DNA of 64,000 nucleotides from Candidatus Moraniibacteriota bacterium (GTDB taxonomy: Bacteria; Patescibacteriota; Minisyncoccia; Moranbacterales; UBA9337). The stretch covers positions 1,696 through 65,695 of the forward strand of contig JAQVJM010000004.1 of the NCBI GenBank assembly GCA_028695135.1. Direction: 5' to 3'. Shown piece by piece: positions 57,067 through 63,458 of this stretch. The notes under the pieces were generated by a model, which saw only the letters and a list, made by a program, of their open reading frames with translations, was not told the origin of the DNA and did not search any database. The translations under genes were made by a program, and so were the position numbers. Numbering within the stretch: the first letter of the stretch is position 1; each line of letters begins with the position of its first letter.

Positions 57067-57140
57067 GATTGATCATTAACCATTGATCATTAATCAATGT
57101 CGAATGTCTAATGATTAATGCTCAATGTTTAATATTTAAT
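57067..57140. repeat. atp-operon spacer motif cluster (TGATCATTAA x2, CATTAATCAATG, CTAATGATTAATG, GCTCAATGTTTAAT)
   Basis: atpB-atpE spacer; palindromic ATTAATCATT-type units seen in sequence. Confidence 0.7.
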
Positions 57141-57208
57141 TAAATTAAGTTACAGTTGGCTAATTCACATTTCCTGTGGATTAGAAACTGTCAACCAAAA
57201 ACTAATTT

Positions 57209-57478
57209 ATGGCAGTTGAAGAAACAAAAGCAGTTGTCGAGGGAGCCCTTAACAATGTCGAATCCGCCAAAGCTCTGGGAGCGGCTTTAGCGATGGGGCT
57301 TGGCGCTATCGGTCCCGGAATCGGAATCGGAATTTTGGCCGCCAAGGCGCTTGAAGCAATCGGGAGAAATCCGGAAGCTGCTTCAAAGATCCAGACTATA
57401 ATGATTCTAGCCATCGCTTTTACCGAAGCTATCGCTATATATGCGCTGGTGATCGCCTTGATCATAAAATTCGTATAG
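57209..57478 (+). CDS. atpE: F0F1 ATP synthase subunit c
   Basis: hairpin with GRNPEA loop and the conserved acidic residue in helix 2 ([11 protein letters not shown]). Confidence 0.9.
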
Positions 57479-57514
57479 ATTTTTTCAGCTTACGGCTTGA
57501 CGACCGGATACAGT

Positions 57515-57605
57515 TAATGATTCTGATTAATAAAATTAATCATTAATCATTAACCATTGATCATTATCATTTTTCGCTTAGTGCTCAATGTTTAATGTTT
57601 AATAA
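57515..57605. repeat. atp-operon spacer motif cluster (AATTAATCATTAATCATTAACCATTGATCATTA; GTGCTCAATGTTTAATGTTTAAT)
   Basis: atpE-atpF spacer. Confidence 0.7.
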
Positions 57606-57611
57606 AAAACA

Positions 57612-58100
57612 ATGGAATTACTAGAAAATTTAGGGATAAATGGAAAAATATTATTGGCTCAGGTGGTGAACTTCTTCATTTTATTCTGGATCCTAAAAAA
57701 ATTTGCCTATAAGCCCGTTTTAAATTTACTGGAGGAAAGAAGCAAAAAAATTGAAAAAGGACTTAAAGATGCGGAGGTTGCCCGGAAGAAACTTGAAGAA
57801 ACCGAAATTGAAAGTAAAAAAATATTGTCTGATGCCAGAAAACATTCTCGAGAAATAATAAAAGAAGCTGAAATTCGGGCGGAAACCAGCAAAAGGGAAA
57901 TCGCCGAAGAGACAAAGCATAAAGTCGATAAGATGATTTCTGATGCGAAGAAAAAGATAGAAGAAGAGAAGGACAAGATGGTGGTGGAAGTCAAAAATGA
58001 GGTTGCCGACCTAGTGTCTCTGGCTACGGAAAAAGTGCTGGAAAAAAAAGCGGATAGCGAGGATGATAAAAAAATTATTAAAAAAGTTATTGAAAATTAA
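57612..58100 (+). CDS. atpF: F0F1 ATP synthase subunit b
   Basis: single N-terminal TM then a long charged helix; position in the operon. Confidence 0.85.
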   Translation: MELLENLGINGKILLAQVVNFFILFWILKKFAYKPVLNLLEERSKKIEKGLKDAEVARKKLEETEIESKKILSDARKHSREIIKEAEIRAETSKREIAEETKHKVDKMISDAKKKIEEEKDKMVVEVKNEVADLVSLATEKVLEKKADSEDDKKIIKKVIEN

Positions 58101-58144
58101 GCATTAAACATTAATCGTTGAGAATATCGATTAATGATCAATGA
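58101..58144. repeat. atp-operon spacer motif (GCATTAAACATTAATCGTTGAG = reverse complement of CTCAACGATTAATGTTTAATGC; CGATTAATGATCAATGATTGA)
   Basis: atpF-atpH spacer. Confidence 0.7.
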
Positions 58145-60226: not shown

Positions 60227-61183
60227 ATGAGCAATGGCAAGGAGATCCGGAGGAGGATCAAGTCGATAAATAACACAGGAAAAATAACTCGGGCAATGGA
60301 GATGGTTTCGGCTGCCAAAATGAGAAAAGCTACCGAAAGCGTCTTAAAGATCAGGGCTTATGCCCATAGCGCTTGGAGCGTCCTTACCAATCTTGCTCGG
60401 GCTTTTGAAAATTATGACCACGGCCTCTTGGAAGTCAGAGAAGTCAAGAGCGTGCTGATAATAGCAGTTACATCCAATAGGGGGCTTTGCGGGTCATTTA
60501 ACGCGCAAATTATAAAAAAAATAAAAGAAGAAATCGGGAATCCTCAGAGCCTGAAAATAAATAGAATCGGGATGAAAAAGATCGAATCGACTGTTGCCGA
60601 TAAAGATTTGAAAATTGATTTTATAACAGTCGGAAGAAAAGGAGAAAATTTGGTGAGAAAACTCGGTAAAGAAATCATAGCCGCTTTCCCCGAACTTACC
60701 TATTTGCCCGGAATTGAAAACGTGAGGCCTTTGTCAAAGATAGTGATTGACGAATACTTGAATAAGAGGTATGACAAGGTGGTGATAGCTTATACGGACT
60801 ATATTTCCACTATGAGGCAGGAGCCTAAAATAAGGCAAGTTCTTCCGGTTTCCAAGATCGATTTAGAAAAACAAATTGCCGAGATGGATAATCTGGCCAA
60901 GGAATATGGATTGAAAAAACCAAAAATGGAGTACAAGGTGGAACCTAACCCGAAAGAAGTTCTGACCCATATTTTTCCGAGGTTGATCGAGATGCAGATT
61001 TATCACGCTATTTTGGAATCCAATGCCTCCAAGGAGTCATCCAGGATGCTAGCTATGAGAAACGCAACTGACGCGGCCAATGAAATGAGCGAGGATCTGA
61101 CATTAGCATACAATCAGATAAGGCAGATGAAGATCACCCAGGAGATCGCTGAGATAAGTGCAGGAAGAGCGGCGCTGGAGTAG
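60227..61183 (+). CDS. atpG: F0F1 ATP synthase subunit gamma
   Basis: N-terminal IRRRIKSINNTGKITRAMEMVSAAKMRKA and C-terminal coiled-coil ITQEIAEISAGRAAL. Confidence 0.9.
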   Translation: MSNGKEIRRRIKSINNTGKITRAMEMVSAAKMRKATESVLKIRAYAHSAWSVLTNLARAFENYDHGLLEVREVKSVLIIAVTSNRGLCGSFNAQIIKKIKEEIGNPQSLKINRIGMKKIESTVADKDLKIDFITVGRKGENLVRKLGKEIIAAFPELTYLPGIENVRPLSKIVIDEYLNKRYDKVVIAYTDYISTMRQEPKIRQVLPVSKIDLEKQIAEMDNLAKEYGLKKPKMEYKVEPNPKEVLTHIFPRLIEMQIYHAILESNASKESSRMLAMRNATDAANEMSEDLTLAYNQIRQMKITQEIAEISAGRAALE

Positions 61184-61208
61184 GATTAAGAATTATGAAT
61201 TAAGAATT

Positions 61209-61790
61209 ATGAATGTGGAATTCGAAGCGACATTTAAAAATATCAGCAAAGATGAATTTAGAGATAAGCTAAGAGATTTAGGCGCTGAAATGGTTAAGGA
61301 AGAATTTTTGCAGAAAAGAAGCACATTCAATGTGCCAAGAGGTTGCAAGATTAATGAAAGCTGGCTAAGGGTTAGAGACGAAGTAGATAAGATAACTTTG
61401 ACATTCAAATCAGGCGGAAAGCAATCCGCCATAGAAGATCAAAAAGAGATAGAGCTTAAGGTTGATAATTATGAAGAAGCTAAAAAATTTTTGGAAGTGC
61501 TGGGTTGCAGAAAGAAATCTTATCAGGAGACAAAGAGAGAAATCTGGAAATTGGATGAAGTAGAAGTTATGATTGACGAATGGCCTTTTCTTGAACCTTT
61601 TGCGGAGATCGAAGGCAAAAATGAGGAAGAAGTAAAGAAAGCCAGCGAGAAATTGGGATTTGATTATAATGATGCAGTTTTTGGTCCGGTTAGCATACTA
61701 TATTCCGAAAAATACGGAGTGACTGAGAAATTTGTAAATAATGAAGTCAAAGAAATTTTGTTTAATGGCGATAATCCATTTATAAGATAA
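61209..61790 (+). CDS. CYTH-domain protein (class IV adenylyl cyclase / triphosphate tunnel metalloenzyme family) inserted in the atp operon
   Basis: EFEATFK N-terminal beta-strand with conserved Glu pair, ESWLRVRD, ITLTFK, EIELKV, EVMIDEWPFLEPFAEIEG; start taken at the second ATG of a 14-nt tandem duplication. Confidence 0.7.
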   Translation: MNVEFEATFKNISKDEFRDKLRDLGAEMVKEEFLQKRSTFNVPRGCKINESWLRVRDEVDKITLTFKSGGKQSAIEDQKEIELKVDNYEEAKKFLEVLGCRKKSYQETKREIWKLDEVEVMIDEWPFLEPFAEIEGKNEEEVKKASEKLGFDYNDAVFGPVSILYSEKYGVTEKFVNNEVKEILFNGDNPFIR

Positions 61791-61885
61791 CCCACGAAAC
61801 TACAAATCCCATACAAATCTACAAATATATAAAAATAAATTTCTCATTTGTAGCTTTGCAGCAGAGTTGTAAATTCGCAGTTAAT
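61788..61885 (+). repeat. copy D of the triple-TACAAAT intergenic repeat family (AACCCACGAAACTACAAATCCCATACAAATCTACAAAT...TTTGCAG...TTGTAAATTCGCAG)
   Basis: co-linear with copy C (28755-28850) over ~95 nt; lies between the CYTH gene and atpD. Confidence 0.7.
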
Positions 61886-61912
61886 AAAATAATTTAAAAA
61901 ACTTAAAATACT

Positions 61913-63367
61913 ATGAAAAACGTAGGAAAAATATCACAAATAATCGGACCGGTAGTTGACGTGGAATTTTCCGCCCCGGCGGACGATAAAGCGAATCTTC
62001 CGGAAATTTATCATGCTCTTGAAATAGAATTGGGCAATGACAAAAAGCTGGTACTGGAAACCCATCAGCATCTGGGGGGAAATAAAGTGAGAGCTGTGGC
62101 TATGGGTTCCACGGATGGACTCAGAAGGCAGATGGATGTGATTGACACCGGCGCGCCTATCAGTGTTCCTGTCGGAAAGGAAACCTTGGGAAGGATGTTT
62201 AATCTTTTGGGAGAGCCGATCGATGGGAAAGAACCTGTCAAAACAGAAAAAACCAGCCCTATACACAGAGAAGCGCCTGATTTTTCCGAACAATCTACGG
62301 AAGCGGAAGTTTTGGAAACCGGAATAAAAGTTATCGATCTGATCTGTCCTTTCGTTAAAGGAGGGAAAATCGGACTTTTCGGCGGAGCCGGGGTGGGAAA
62401 AACAGTGGTTATCCAAGAACTCATCCGAAATATCGCTCAGGAGCATGGCGGATATTCGATGTTTGCCGGAGTGGGAGAAAGAACCAGGGAAGGAAACGAT
62501 CTCTATCATGAGATGAAAGAGTCCGGAGTCTTGAACAAAACCGCTTTGGTTTTCGGCCAGATGAACGAACCGCCGGGAGCAAGGCAGCGAGTGGCGCTTT
62601 CCGCTCTAGCTATGGCGGAGCATTTCCGCGATGAAGAAGGAAAAGACACTCTTCTTTTCATAGACAATATTTTCCGTTTTACCCAAGCCGGATCCGAAGT
62701 GTCCGCGCTTCTCGGGCGCATTCCTTCAGCCGTGGGCTATCAGCCGACTCTGGCCGAGGAGATGGGACAGCTCCAGGAAAGAATTACCTCCACCAAAAAA
62801 GGTTCTGTAACATCCGTGCAGGCCGTTTATGTTCCGGCCGATGATCTTACTGATCCCGCTCCAGCCACTACTTTCGGCCATCTTGATTCGACCGTAGTCC
62901 TTTCTCGCGGCCTTTCAGAATTGGGGATTTATCCGGCTGTCGATCCTTTGGATAGCGCCTCGACTATTCTCGACCCCAATATTGTCGGCAAGGAACATTA
63001 TGATGTCGCGCGCGGTGTTCAGCAGGTCCTTCAGAGATATAAGGATCTTCAAGATATCATTGCTATTTTGGGAATGGAGGAACTTTCAGACGAGGACAAA
63101 GTAACAGTTGCCAGAGCCAGAAAGATCCAGAAGTTTTTGTCCCAGCCGTTTTTTGTGGCCGAACAATTTACAGGAACTCCCGGCCAATATGTAAAATTGG
63201 AAGATACCATAAAAGGGTTCAAGATGATTTTGGAAGGAAAACTGGACAGTATACCTGAACAAGAATTTTATATGAAAGGCGGAATCGGGGAAGTTAATAA
63301 AGAAGGGGATATAAAAAAGTCTGGCTCTTCGGATAAAGAGAAGAAAGAAAAGAAAAAAAATTCATAA
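61913..63367 (+). CDS. atpD: F0F1 ATP synthase subunit beta (with short Lys/Ser-rich C-terminal extension)
   Basis: Walker [16 protein letters not shown]-like MEELSDEDK motif, beta C-terminal domain. Confidence 0.9.
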
Positions 63368-63458
63368 TTCATCATTTATCATTAAATATTAATCAATCAT
63401 TATGATATGGCTTAATTGTACCCGATGTTTAATGATTAATAATCAATGATTAATTAAA
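63368..63458. repeat. atp-operon spacer motif cluster (ATTAATCAATCATT; CCCGATGTTTAATGATTAATAATCAATGATTAATT)
   Basis: atpD-atpC spacer. Confidence 0.7.

What the first reader, a model, noticed from the sequence alone, without database searches (positions are those of the whole stretch)
57067..63458. Operon-specific palindromic motif (ATTAATCATT / GCTCAATGTTTAATG) in every intercistronic spacer of the ATP synthase operon
All five spacers of the atp operon (B-E, E-F, F-H, A-G, D-C) contain multiple copies, in both orientations, of AATGATTAAT/ATTAATCATT and (G)CTCAATG(T/A)TTAATG. I did not see this motif elsewhere in the 64 kb. Such strict operon-wide placement suggests a dedicated regulator binding array or RNA processing/stability sites that set subunit stoichiometry.
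Basis: seen in the sequence. Interest (0 to 1): 0.65.

Follow-up and report, generated by a model that had tools for sequence, protein, structure and literature searches.

The report
Heptad-repeat hairpin elements in atp spacers
The "operon-specific motif" is real, but it is the 7-base repeat unit of five fast-evolving hairpin insertions of a kind common in these tiny (CPR) bacteria and also found around ribosomal-RNA "intervening sequence" genes, not a conserved regulator-binding code for ATP synthase.

Summary
The sequence observation holds. Five atp junctions (B-E, E-F, F-H, A-G, D-C) carry arrays of the heptad CATTRAN, each followed by the inverted array NTYAATG. 25 of 26 pattern matches in 64 kb lie there, against 0.4 expected. 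"Every spacer" is wrong: four of nine junctions lack the motif.

The organism is a Candidatus Moranbacteria (CPR) bacterium. The motif is not conserved. Relatives with 90-92% identical AtpG have 3-35 nt junctions at F-H, A-G and D-C, or hairpins built from other heptads. So these are lineage-specific insertions that fill the gap from stop to start codon.

Period-7 arrays are a clade-wide signature: 18 in this window and 122 in 519 kb of CPR relatives, against 2 in 381 kb of non-CPR atp loci. They are denser in atp spacers than in flanking spacers.

The same inverted heptad arms flank 23S-rRNA-IVS-protein (four-helix-bundle) genes. This is seen in this window (2634-3099), inside relatives' atp spacers, in cyanobacterial plasmids, and in a canonical 23S rRNA IVS.

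Best reading: these are ORF-less, IVS-like palindromic elements. Their transcripts form imperfect AU-rich stems that are probably RNase III substrates. That processing step is inferred, not shown. A dedicated DNA regulator is not supported.

The parts
57067..57141 (+). B-E element. The 5' arm (GATTGAT CATTAAC CATTGAT CATTAAT) starts 1 nt after the atpB stop codon. The 3' inverted arm is AATGTCT AATGATT AATGCTC AATGTTT AATATTT.
   Evidence: Arms of 29 nt, 83% complementary. RNA MFE -20.7 kcal/mol, z = -3.6. Absent from the B-E spacers of L084, L087, L088 and L089.
57148..57208 (+). Second, older hairpin in the B-E spacer with an AGTT/AACT-type unit. Its 3' arm abuts the atpE start codon.
   Evidence: The 3' part AACTGTCAACCAAAAACTAATTT is homologous to AACTGTTAGCCAAGAACTAAATGT of L087 and L084, whose whole B-E spacer is one (CAGTTNN)n...(NNAACTG)n hairpin.
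57513..57604 (+). E-F element: GTTAATGATTCTGATTAAT, then (AATTAAT CATTAAT CATTAAC CATTGAT CATTATC), a loop, and (CTCAATG TTTAATG TTTAAT). It ends 7 nt before the atpF start codon.
   Evidence: Arms of 25 nt, 84% complementary. MFE -23.4 kcal/mol, z = -4.6. It shares ATTAACCATTGATCATTA and GCTCAATGTTTAAT, in the same order, with the B-E element, so the two are paralogous copies.
58088..58157 (+). F-H element. It overlaps the atpF stop codon and ends 3 nt before the atpH ATG (58160). It has a perfect 9-bp core stem, CATTAATCG/CGATTAATG.
   Evidence: (z = -2.2). A short element of the same unit type (CTTAATG TTTAATA ATTAATG ATCA) is at the same junction in L088. The junction is 4-7 nt in L084 and L089.
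60131..60222 (+). A-G element. It fills the spacer from the atpA stop codon to 4 nt before the atpG ATG.
   Evidence: Arms of 30 nt, 77% complementary; z = -2.6. The A-G junction is 3 nt in L084 and L087 and 19 nt in L089.
63359..63458 (+). D-C element. It overlaps the atpD stop codon and ends at the base before the atpC ATG.
   Evidence: Arms of 31 nt, 81% complementary; weak fold z = -0.8. The D-C junction is 10-18 nt in L084, L087 and L089.
61185..61214 (+). Heptad array of a different unit (ATTAAGA ATTATGA x2) directly after atpG. It contains the CYTH gene start codon.
   Evidence: TRF period 7 and 14. The same unit is at the same position in L001, which has 83% AtpG identity.
2634..3099 (+). 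Sibling element with cargo: 35-nt inverted heptad arms (2634-2668 and 3065-3099) around a 103-aa 23S_rRNA_IVP / TIGR02436 four-helix-bundle gene (2651-2962), inserted between lemA and an M48 peptidase gene.
   Evidence: Inverted repeat 80% complementary. Pfam PF05635 E = 2.6e-12. TIGR02436 E = 5.5e-16.
16157..16220 (.). The only other local heptad hairpin outside the atp operon in this window (AAAATTN-type unit).
33714..33862 (+). infA-rpmJ spacer with inverted TACGAAT/TTCGTAA-type short-period arrays.
55979..56007 (+). Best sigma-70-like promoter match, upstream of atpZ. No comparable site lies inside the spacers.
   Evidence: TTGACA-17-TAAAAT, 11 of 12 matches.

Best explanation
The motif is the repeat unit of five copies of a lineage-specific, ORF-less palindromic element. 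Each copy has a tandem array of the heptanucleotide CATTRAN, a non-conserved loop, and the inverted array NTYAATG. Each sits between the stop codon of one atp gene and the start codon of the next.

The elements belong to a class that is abundant in Moranbacteria and neighbouring CPR bacteria: inverted heptanucleotide arrays whose unit sequence changes from lineage to lineage. This architecture matches the stems that flank 23S-rRNA-intervening-sequence (IVS) protein genes. The copies arose by insertion or duplication, in both orientations, plus heptad slippage. At least B-E and E-F are paralogous copies.

Shown here: the anatomy, the lack of conservation, the clade-wide period-7 signature, the atp-spacer enrichment, and the link to IVP genes.

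Inferred: once transcribed in the polycistronic atp mRNA, each element folds into a 22-31 bp imperfect AU-rich stem-loop. This brings the stop and start codons together and is a likely RNase III substrate, as are IVS stems. It would therefore cut or modulate the mRNA between cistrons. Any effect on subunit stoichiometry would be a by-product or secondary exaptation, not a conserved design.
For: 1. Anatomy and statistics.

2. Insertions relative to close relatives. The flanking coding sequence is conserved, but F-H, A-G and D-C junctions are 3-35 nt in L084, L087, L088 and L089.

3. Period 7 is the dominant tandem period. This window has 18 arrays at period 7 against 0-2 at periods 4-6 and 8-11. 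Moranbacteria relatives have 51 in 211 kb and other CPR 71 in 308 kb, against 2 in 381 kb of non-CPR atp loci.

4. Relatives' atp spacers carry hairpins with other units whose two arms still match: 64 hairpins, 1464 Watson-Crick pairs out of 1729 positions.

5. Enrichment in atp spacers: 61 arrays in 26.6 kb of intergenic DNA against 13 in 32.0 kb of flanks. In this window, 5 of 8 junctions against 1 of 60, p = 3e-5. Arrays in different spacers of one operon share a unit (at least 6 of 7 bases) in 41% of pairs, against 18% for operon-versus-flank pairs and 10% between genomes.

6. IVS link. An IVP gene with 35-nt inverted heptad arms is in this window. IVP genes flanked by inverted short-period arrays (heptads in L088, L023 and L024; an about 8-nt unit in L029) sit inside atp spacers of L088 (E-F) and L023, L024 and L029 (D-C). 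At the E-F junction L087 has an ORF-less hairpin where L088 has an IVP-carrying one with a related unit. Seven IVP genes lie next to arrays in 120 metagenome loci that were fetched only by the heptad pattern. In an independent sample from plasmids, 6 of 6 IVP genes have heptad arrays on at least one flank, four as clear inverted pairs, including a canonical 23S rRNA helix-45 IVS.

7. Literature. The Coxiella IVS has a terminal 28-bp stem and tandem heptameric repeats of variable number, and RNase III cuts at the first repeat (PMC4990558). CPR rRNA genes hold many short non-intron insertions at IVS sites, and some rRNA insertions encode IVP genes (PMC11270868). Xanthomonas has 70-75 inverted pairs of heptamer arrays in intergenic DNA (PMC4692102).
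Against: No transcript or cleavage data exist for this organism, and no RNase III gene is in the DNA held (uninformative).

Mismatches in 64 atp-spacer hairpins show no G-U enrichment and no strand asymmetry: 46 sense wobble, 61 antisense wobble, 158 other. Sense and antisense folds are equally stable. So nothing shows selection at the RNA level, and complementarity could be purely a DNA-level property of how the elements are made.

The stems are AU-rich with a mismatch about every 7 bp, and one (D-C) does not fold better than shuffles.

The loops of the five copies are unrelated, and no target-site duplication or mobility gene was identified, so the mode of spread is unknown.

The elements are dispensable, since close relatives lack them.
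Confidence: 0.6

Rival explanations
1. Neutral or selfish DNA only. Heptanucleotide slippage, a known bias of bacterial SSRs, plus inverted duplication produces hairpin-shaped junk. This junk accumulates wherever it is tolerated, and co-directional intercistronic junctions tolerate it well. It has no RNA-level role.
For: There is rapid turnover, and the elements are absent in relatives with 90-92% identical AtpG. Arrays also occur inside coding sequences: prmC and tatD here, and LeuRS in relatives. There is no wobble enrichment or strand bias. Heptamer over-representation has been attributed to polymerase slippage (PMC4692102, citing Mrazek 2007).
Against: Slippage alone does not explain why variants appear in matching order in the two arms. 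It does not explain the 5.6-fold enrichment per intergenic kb in atp spacers, or the regular association with IVP genes in unrelated phyla. Being transcribed inside an operon, the stems will form in RNA whether or not they are selected.
Confidence: 0.25
2. REP-like protective stem-loops. The hairpins act as barriers to 3'-5' exonucleases, or as RNase E/Y-defined segment ends. They would stabilise upstream cistrons differentially rather than being cut by RNase III.
For: They are intercistronic imperfect palindromes directly after stop codons. Four of five sense-strand folds are more stable than shuffles, three of them clearly (z = -3.6, -4.6, -2.6; F-H only marginally, z = -2.2, 8 of 200 shuffles as stable). 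REP elements are known to act this way in E. coli (established knowledge).
Against: The stems are AU-rich and interrupted, at -12 to -23 kcal/mol. They are not conserved. The closest structural relatives with experimental data (IVS stems) are RNase III substrates (PMC4990558).
Confidence: 0.12
3. Translation-initiation elements. The 3' arrays just upstream of start codons are binding sites for S1, a cold-shock protein or a similar single-strand RNA binder in a genome that hardly uses Shine-Dalgarno sequences. This was proposed for TAACTGA heptamer repeats in Beggiatoaceae.
For: The 3' arms end 0-7 nt before the starts of atpF, atpH, atpG and atpC. Only 2 of 21 genes here have an SD-like sequence, and no atp gene does. 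The analogy is PMC4679880.
Against: The arrays come as inverted pairs, which would sequester the 3' arm. atpE, atpA and atpD have no such array next to their start codons. Close relatives initiate the same genes from 3-18 nt junctions.
Confidence: 0.08
4. A dedicated DNA-binding regulator (for example Fur-like, recognising AT-rich hexamer or heptamer arrays) binds the arrays throughout the operon.
For: There is a local concentration of one unit sequence in both orientations, and a superficial likeness to Fur-box arrays (recalled from memory, not tested).
Against: The sites lie between cistrons, not at the promoter. The unit is not conserved in any of 80 related atp loci. Relatives use many different units in the same architecture. 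The same unit arrays occur in more than 120 unrelated metagenome contigs, and the 80 of those checked carry no atp genes.
Confidence: 0.04

Closest known systems
23S rRNA intervening sequences (IVS) with or without an S23p/IVP ORF (Salmonella, Leptospira, Coxiella; PMC4990558)
   Same: Both have terminal inverted repeats that form a 20-30 bp stem around a loop, and the loop may carry a four-helix-bundle (PF05635/TIGR02436) gene. In both, the stem is built of tandem heptamers whose number varies between strains. Both are sporadic, lineage-specific and dispensable. A canonical helix-45 IVS examined here (L219) has CAGAGGA/CGGAGGA heptad arms.
   Different: The atp elements lie in mRNA between cistrons, not in rRNA helix 25 or 45. 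They carry no ORF. RNase III cleavage is untested. The stems are AU-rich with more mismatches.
Inverted pairs of heptameric SSR arrays in Xanthomonas (GGGAATC) and STRR/GGGGAYT heptamers in Nostoc and Calothrix (PMC4692102)
   Same: These are intergenic tandem heptamers that are over-represented relative to other periods. In Xanthomonas, 70-75 pairs are in convergent (hairpin-forming) arrangement. Length and sequence vary between close relatives while the position is often kept. One array lies between pecE and pecF inside an operon.
   Different: Those units are G-rich and were studied as G-quadruplex formers, with one dominant unit per genome. Here the units are AT-rich, many units coexist in one genome, and the host is a CPR bacterium.
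TAACTGA direct heptamer repeats of marine Beggiatoaceae (PMC4679880)
   Same: Heptamer arrays lie a few nucleotides upstream of start codons in spacers without Shine-Dalgarno sequences. They are also found in ribosomal-protein operons and occasionally inside ORFs. A post-transcriptional role was proposed.
   Different: Those are almost always direct repeats (a single inverted case) of one conserved unit.
REP/BIME elements of enterobacteria
   Same: These are imperfect palindromes in intercistronic and 3' regions, in both orientations, with a known effect on mRNA segment stability.
   Different: REPs have no heptad substructure. They have hundreds of near-identical copies genome-wide and an associated RAYT transposase. 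None of these was seen or testable here.

Membership tests
IVS-type element (23S rRNA intervening sequence class) | Terminal inverted repeats forming a stem of about 20-30 bp | tested here: met
   Arms of 22-31 nt, 74-88% complementary, in all five spacers. Four of the five sense-strand folds are more stable than shuffles (z = -2.2 to -4.6); D-C is not (z = -0.8).
IVS-type element (23S rRNA intervening sequence class) | Stem composed of tandem heptameric repeats (Coxiella GACAGAT; PMC4990558) | tested here: met
   About 45 units of CATTRAN in register. The same holds for IVP-flanking arms in the window, CPR relatives, plasmids and a true rRNA IVS.
IVS-type element (23S rRNA intervening sequence class) | Inserted in 23S rRNA helix 25 or 45 | tested here: not met
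   The elements lie between protein-coding cistrons. No rRNA is in the window.
IVS-type element (23S rRNA intervening sequence class) | Excised or cleaved by RNase III | not testable with these tools
   No transcript data exist, and no rnc gene is in the held sequence.
IVS-type element (23S rRNA intervening sequence class) | Optional S23p/IVP ORF in the loop | tested here: not met
   The five atp elements have 10-36 nt loops without an ORF. The feature is met by the sibling element at 2634-3099 and by elements in atp spacers of L088, L023, L024 and L029.
Heptanucleotide SSR / STRR-like arrays | Tandem repeats with a 7-nt period, over-represented relative to neighbouring periods, mainly intergenic | tested here: met
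Heptanucleotide SSR / STRR-like arrays | One of the described unit sequences (STRR, GGGAATC, TAACTGA) | tested here: not met
   The unit is CATTRAN. Relatives use many other AT-rich units.
REP/BIME | Many near-identical copies dispersed genome-wide, with an associated RAYT gene | tested here: inconclusive
   Only about 69 kb of this genome was available. All copies found are in one operon. RAYT was not searched for.
Operator array of a dedicated transcription factor | Conserved at orthologous positions in related genomes and located at the promoter | tested here: not met
Intrinsic terminator | GC-rich stem followed by a U tract | tested here: not met
   No terminator-like hit in any spacer.
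Known RNA family (Rfam 15) | Covariance-model match | tested here: not met
   Only two chance-level snoRNA matches in the region (E = 0.49 and 0.74, both far below gathering score and neither in a spacer). The whole window gives one tRNA.

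The most novel reading that the evidence does not exclude
Heptad-stem elements may be one widespread class of IVS-like insertions. The four-helix-bundle IVP gene would be their optional cargo. Under this reading they colonise not only rRNA helices but also stop-start junctions of transcribed operons: atp in CPR bacteria, and cas6-cas4 and cas10-cmr3 in cyanobacteria. That would unify three things so far described separately: rRNA IVSs, cyanobacterial and Xanthomonas heptamer (STRR-type) repeats, and 'cas-associated' IVP genes. In Moranbacteria their repeated capture in the atp operon would give RNase III-dependent segmentation of the polycistronic mRNA.
Probability: 0.25. 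Interest if true: 0.75.

Novelty: new member of a known kind. Interest (0 to 1): 0.45.

Why it matters
For the atp operon itself, the result is deflationary. There is no conserved stoichiometry code, and annotators should treat these spacers as repeat insertions.

More broadly, the data show three things:

- CPR (Moranbacteria-type) genomes share the strong heptanucleotide-repeat signature so far discussed for cyanobacteria, Xanthomonas and Beggiatoaceae.
- The repeats typically come as hairpin-forming inverted pairs concentrated at intercistronic junctions.
- The same arms bound IVP/S23p genes in several phyla.

If the IVS analogy holds, it offers a testable function for a long-unexplained repeat class and for the IVP family, namely RNase III entry sites. 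It would also explain why IVP genes turn up inside cas and atp operons.

Tried and rejected
- **Exact-motif conservation.** 80 atp loci from GTDB genomes were scanned. The motif is absent apart from related TGATCAT/TGCTCAT heptads in L002 and L005.
- **Rfam.** The evalue threshold on the operon and the gathering threshold on the whole window found nothing relevant.
- **Terminator and promoter scan.** The hairpins are not terminator-like, and the only strong promoter lies upstream of atpZ.
- **RNA-level selection.** Sense and antisense folds are equally stable. The mismatch spectrum shows no G-U enrichment or strand bias. So RNA-level selection could not be shown.
- **Simple MITE copy-paste.** The loops of the five copies are unrelated and no target-site duplication is visible. 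Only B-E and E-F share ordered arm variants.
- **Metagenome scan for (CATTRAN)3CATT.** It returned more than 120 contigs of GC 32-69%; no atp genes were found in the 80 checked. The unit is therefore not atp-specific globally.
- **RNase III gene.** tblastn with the E. coli sequence (recalled from memory) found no hit in the held DNA, which is uninformative.
- **Fur-box likeness.** Considered from memory and dropped, given the non-promoter location and the lack of conservation.
- **Literature.** Searches found no paper linking IVP genes, heptamer arrays and CPR operons.

Full report
**What is there.** The region is an F-type ATP synthase operon on the + strand:

| Gene | Coordinates |
|---|---|
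| atpZ-like | 56013-56279 |
| atpB | 56290-57066 |
| atpE | 57209-57478 |
| atpF | 57612-58100 |
| atpH | 58160-58567 |
| atpA | 58634 (or 58574)-60130 |
| atpG | 60227-61183 |
| CYTH/CyaB-like gene | 61209-61790 |
| atpD | 61913-63367 |
| atpC | 63459-63887 |

Read in register, the motif is a heptad with consensus C-A-T-T-(A/G)-A-(T/A), and about 45 units can be aligned. Each of five spacers contains a 5' array (CATTRAN)n, a non-conserved loop, and the inverted array (NTYAATG)n. This gives imperfect inverted repeats of 22-31 nt at 74-88% complementarity.

CATTRANCATTRANCATT with up to 2 mismatches matches 26 times in 64 kb. 25 of these lie in the five spacers, against 0.40 expected. Runs of at least 3 CATT or AATG at 7-nt spacing occur nowhere else.

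The elements fill their spacers from stop codon to start codon. The B-E copy starts 1 nt after the atpB stop. The F-H, A-G and D-C copies end 0-4 nt before the next ATG.

Seven assemblies of the same species from different samples carry the same spacers at 99.7-99.98% identity, so the arrays are not artefacts.

'Every spacer' is an overstatement. atpZ-B, H-A, G-CYTH and CYTH-D lack the motif.

**Organism and conservation.** AtpG is identical to a protein of a Candidatus Moranbacteria MAG, on a 185-kb JGI contig. Relatives are Moranbacteria and Patescibacteria.

None of 80 related atp loci keeps the CATTRAN arrays. Only L002 and L005 have related TGATCAT/TGCTCAT heptads.

The closest relatives are decisive. 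With AtpG 90-92% identical and flanking codons well conserved, the junctions are as follows:

| Junction | Length in L084, L087, L088, L089 |
|---|---|
| F-H | 4-7 nt in L084 and L089; 35 nt in L088; 95 nt of unrelated sequence in L087 |
| A-G | 3-19 nt in L084, L087 and L089; 86 nt of unrelated sequence in L088 |
| D-C | 10-18 nt (L084, L087, L089; this junction lies beyond the end of the L088 contig) |

L088 keeps a short version at F-H with the same unit (CTTAATG TTTAATA ATTAATG ATCA). Its other spacers use GATTTAN heptads.

The window's B-E spacer also keeps an older AGTT-type hairpin that is shared with L084 and L087. The CATTAAT copy sits between that hairpin and the stop codon.

The five elements are therefore recent, lineage-specific insertions.

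**A clade-wide heptad signature.** Tandem arrays of period 7 dominate all other periods:

| Sequence set | Period-7 arrays | Comparison |
|---|---|---|
| This window | 18 | 0-2 for periods 4-6 and 8-11 |
| Moranbacteria relatives (211 kb) | 51 | |
| Other CPR relatives (308 kb) | 71 | |
| Non-CPR atp loci (381 kb) | 2 | |

The relatives' atp spacers are full of hairpins made from other heptads. Examples are AAGATTT/AAATCAT, TTTCTAA/TTGGAAA, GAACAAT/ATTGATC, GAATTTC, CTCACAA/GTAAGTT and CAACTAA/GTTGTAA. The two arms always match each other: 64 hairpins give 1464 Watson-Crick pairs out of 1729 positions.

Arrays also sit in frame inside genes. Here that means prmC (four arrays) and tatD. In relatives it means LeuRS, repeatedly about 690 nt from the start.

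(CATTRAN)n arrays as such are common in unrelated metagenome contigs of GC 32-69%. The scan returned more than 120; the 80 checked encode no atp genes.

**Is the atp operon special?** Partly.

- In the window, local heptad hairpins occupy 5 of 8 atp junctions against 1 of 60 others (Fisher p = 3e-5).
- Across 43 CPR loci, intergenic arrays are 2.30 per intergenic kb inside the operon against 0.41 in the flanks.
- Arrays in different spacers of one operon share their unit (at least 6 of 7 bases) in 41% of pairs. The figure is 16-18% for other same-genome pairs and 10% between genomes.

So atp spacers are a recurrent sink for such elements, and copies spread or homogenise locally. The B-E and E-F copies share ATTAACCATTGATCATTA and GCTCAATGTTTAAT in the same order, with mismatches mostly at heptad position 7. 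Whether the cause is tolerance (many co-directional junctions, high transcription) or selection cannot be decided here.

**Link to intervening sequences.** A 103-aa ORF at 2651-2962, between lemA and an M48 peptidase gene, is a 23S_rRNA_IVP / TIGR02436 four-helix-bundle protein. It is bracketed by 35-nt inverted heptad arrays at 2634-2668 and 3065-3099.

IVP genes with the same kind of arms lie inside atp spacers of relatives: L088 at E-F, and L023, L024 and L029 at D-C. The arms are heptads in L088, L023 and L024, and an about 8-nt unit in L029. At E-F, L087 has an ORF-less hairpin where L088 has an IVP-carrying one with a related unit.

Seven more IVP genes turned up next to the arrays in metagenome loci that had been fetched only by the heptad pattern.

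In a sample chosen by protein only (plasmids, mostly cyanobacteria), 6 of 6 IVP genes have heptad arrays on at least one flank, and four of them are clear inverted pairs. The sample includes insertions between cas6 and cas4 and between cas10 and cmr3, and a canonical helix-45 IVS in an Azospirillum 23S rRNA gene.

Published work fits this picture:

- The Coxiella IVS has a 28-bp terminal stem and tandem heptamers of variable number at its 5' end, and RNase III cuts at the first repeat (PMC4990558).
- CPR rRNA genes contain many short non-intron insertions at IVS sites, and some of their insertions encode IVP genes (PMC11270868).
- IVP genes were noted in cas loci (PMC3936711).
- Xanthomonas has 70-75 inverted pairs of heptamer arrays (PMC4692102).
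- Beggiatoaceae have TAACTGA heptamers just upstream of SD-less start codons (PMC4679880).

My searches found no paper joining these observations.

**Mechanism.** Shown: the elements are ORF-less members of a class of inverted heptad-array insertions.

Inferred: in the polycistronic transcript each forms an AU-rich imperfect stem. MFE values are -12 to -23 kcal/mol, with z = -2.2 to -4.6 for four copies and -0.8 for D-C. The stem juxtaposes stop and start codons and is a plausible RNase III substrate, by analogy with IVS stems.

The hairpins are not terminators, and no internal promoter stands out. Rfam has nothing. Shine-Dalgarno sequences are nearly absent here (2 of 21 genes, none in atp), so structure next to start codons could matter for initiation.

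Against RNA-level selection, there is no G-U enrichment or strand asymmetry among mismatches (46 sense, 61 antisense, 158 other), and sense and antisense folds are equal in stability.

A neutral or selfish origin with incidental RNA effects is therefore the main rival. A dedicated DNA regulator is the least supported reading.

**Verdict.** The interpretation as an operon-dedicated regulatory code is not supported. 'RNA processing site' survives as an inference.

The thing is a new (CPR, AT-rich) member of a known kind: inverted heptanucleotide-repeat, IVS-like elements. The side result that IVP genes are generally bounded by such arrays, and that they invade operons, is the more interesting lead.

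Noticed in passing
window 42566-43483 (minus strand, prmC/hemK); arrays at 42687-42732, 43095-43125, 43153-43188, 43326-43364: Four heptad arrays with four different units lie in frame inside the release-factor methyltransferase gene; one is a perfect (AAATCGC)x4.7. The outer two form a 26-nt inverted repeat 617 nt apart, so hairpin-type heptad insertions also enter coding sequence.
   Followed up: partly
window 55264-55304 (tatD CDS); L008, L009, L010, L016, L023, L025 LeuRS about 690 nt from the start: In-frame heptad arrays occur inside tatD here. They also occur at a recurrent position of LeuRS in at least 6 CPR species with different units. This suggests permissive loops or an insertion hot spot.
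   Followed up: partly
window 2634-3099: A 23S_rRNA_IVP / TIGR02436 four-helix-bundle gene is bracketed by 35-nt inverted heptad arrays and inserted between lemA and an M48 peptidase gene. This is an IVS-like cassette in a protein-coding operon.
   Followed up: yes
window 61209-61790; G-D junction of L003, L005, L006, L009, L010, L015 and others: A CYTH/CyaB-like (class IV adenylate cyclase / triphosphatase family) gene sits between atpG and atpD. It is present in L084, L085 and L088 and absent in L087, L089 and L001. In many relatives the G-D junction holds insertions of 0.4-2.3 kb, so it is an insertion hot spot.
   Followed up: partly
window 58578-58616 (atpH-atpA junction): A GC-rich bulged hairpin (GCCGGCGACTGCCCGCC tatc GGCGGCAGCCGG) of a different type is absent from L084, where the junction is 7 nt. 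It makes the atpA start ambiguous (58574 or 58634).
   Followed up: no
L003, L005, L009, L014, L030 atp spacers: Other relatives carry GC-rich REP/MITE-like palindromes in the same junctions, for example GTCATTCCCGCGAAAGCGGGAATCC and TGTCATCCTGAAC...GTTCAGGATGACA. The atp spacers therefore collect several unrelated hairpin families.
   Followed up: no
L081 gene starts (window about 52-64 kb and 5 kb beyond): Shine-Dalgarno-like sequences precede only 2 of 21 genes. Leaders are A/T-rich.
   Followed up: partly
L215 (Pseudanabaena plasmid), L217 (Picosynechococcus plasmid): Four-helix-bundle IVP genes flanked by heptad arrays are inserted co-directionally between cas6 and cas4 and between cas10 and cmr3. 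Their reported 'association' with cas genes may reflect insertion of IVS-like elements rather than a CRISPR function.
   Followed up: partly
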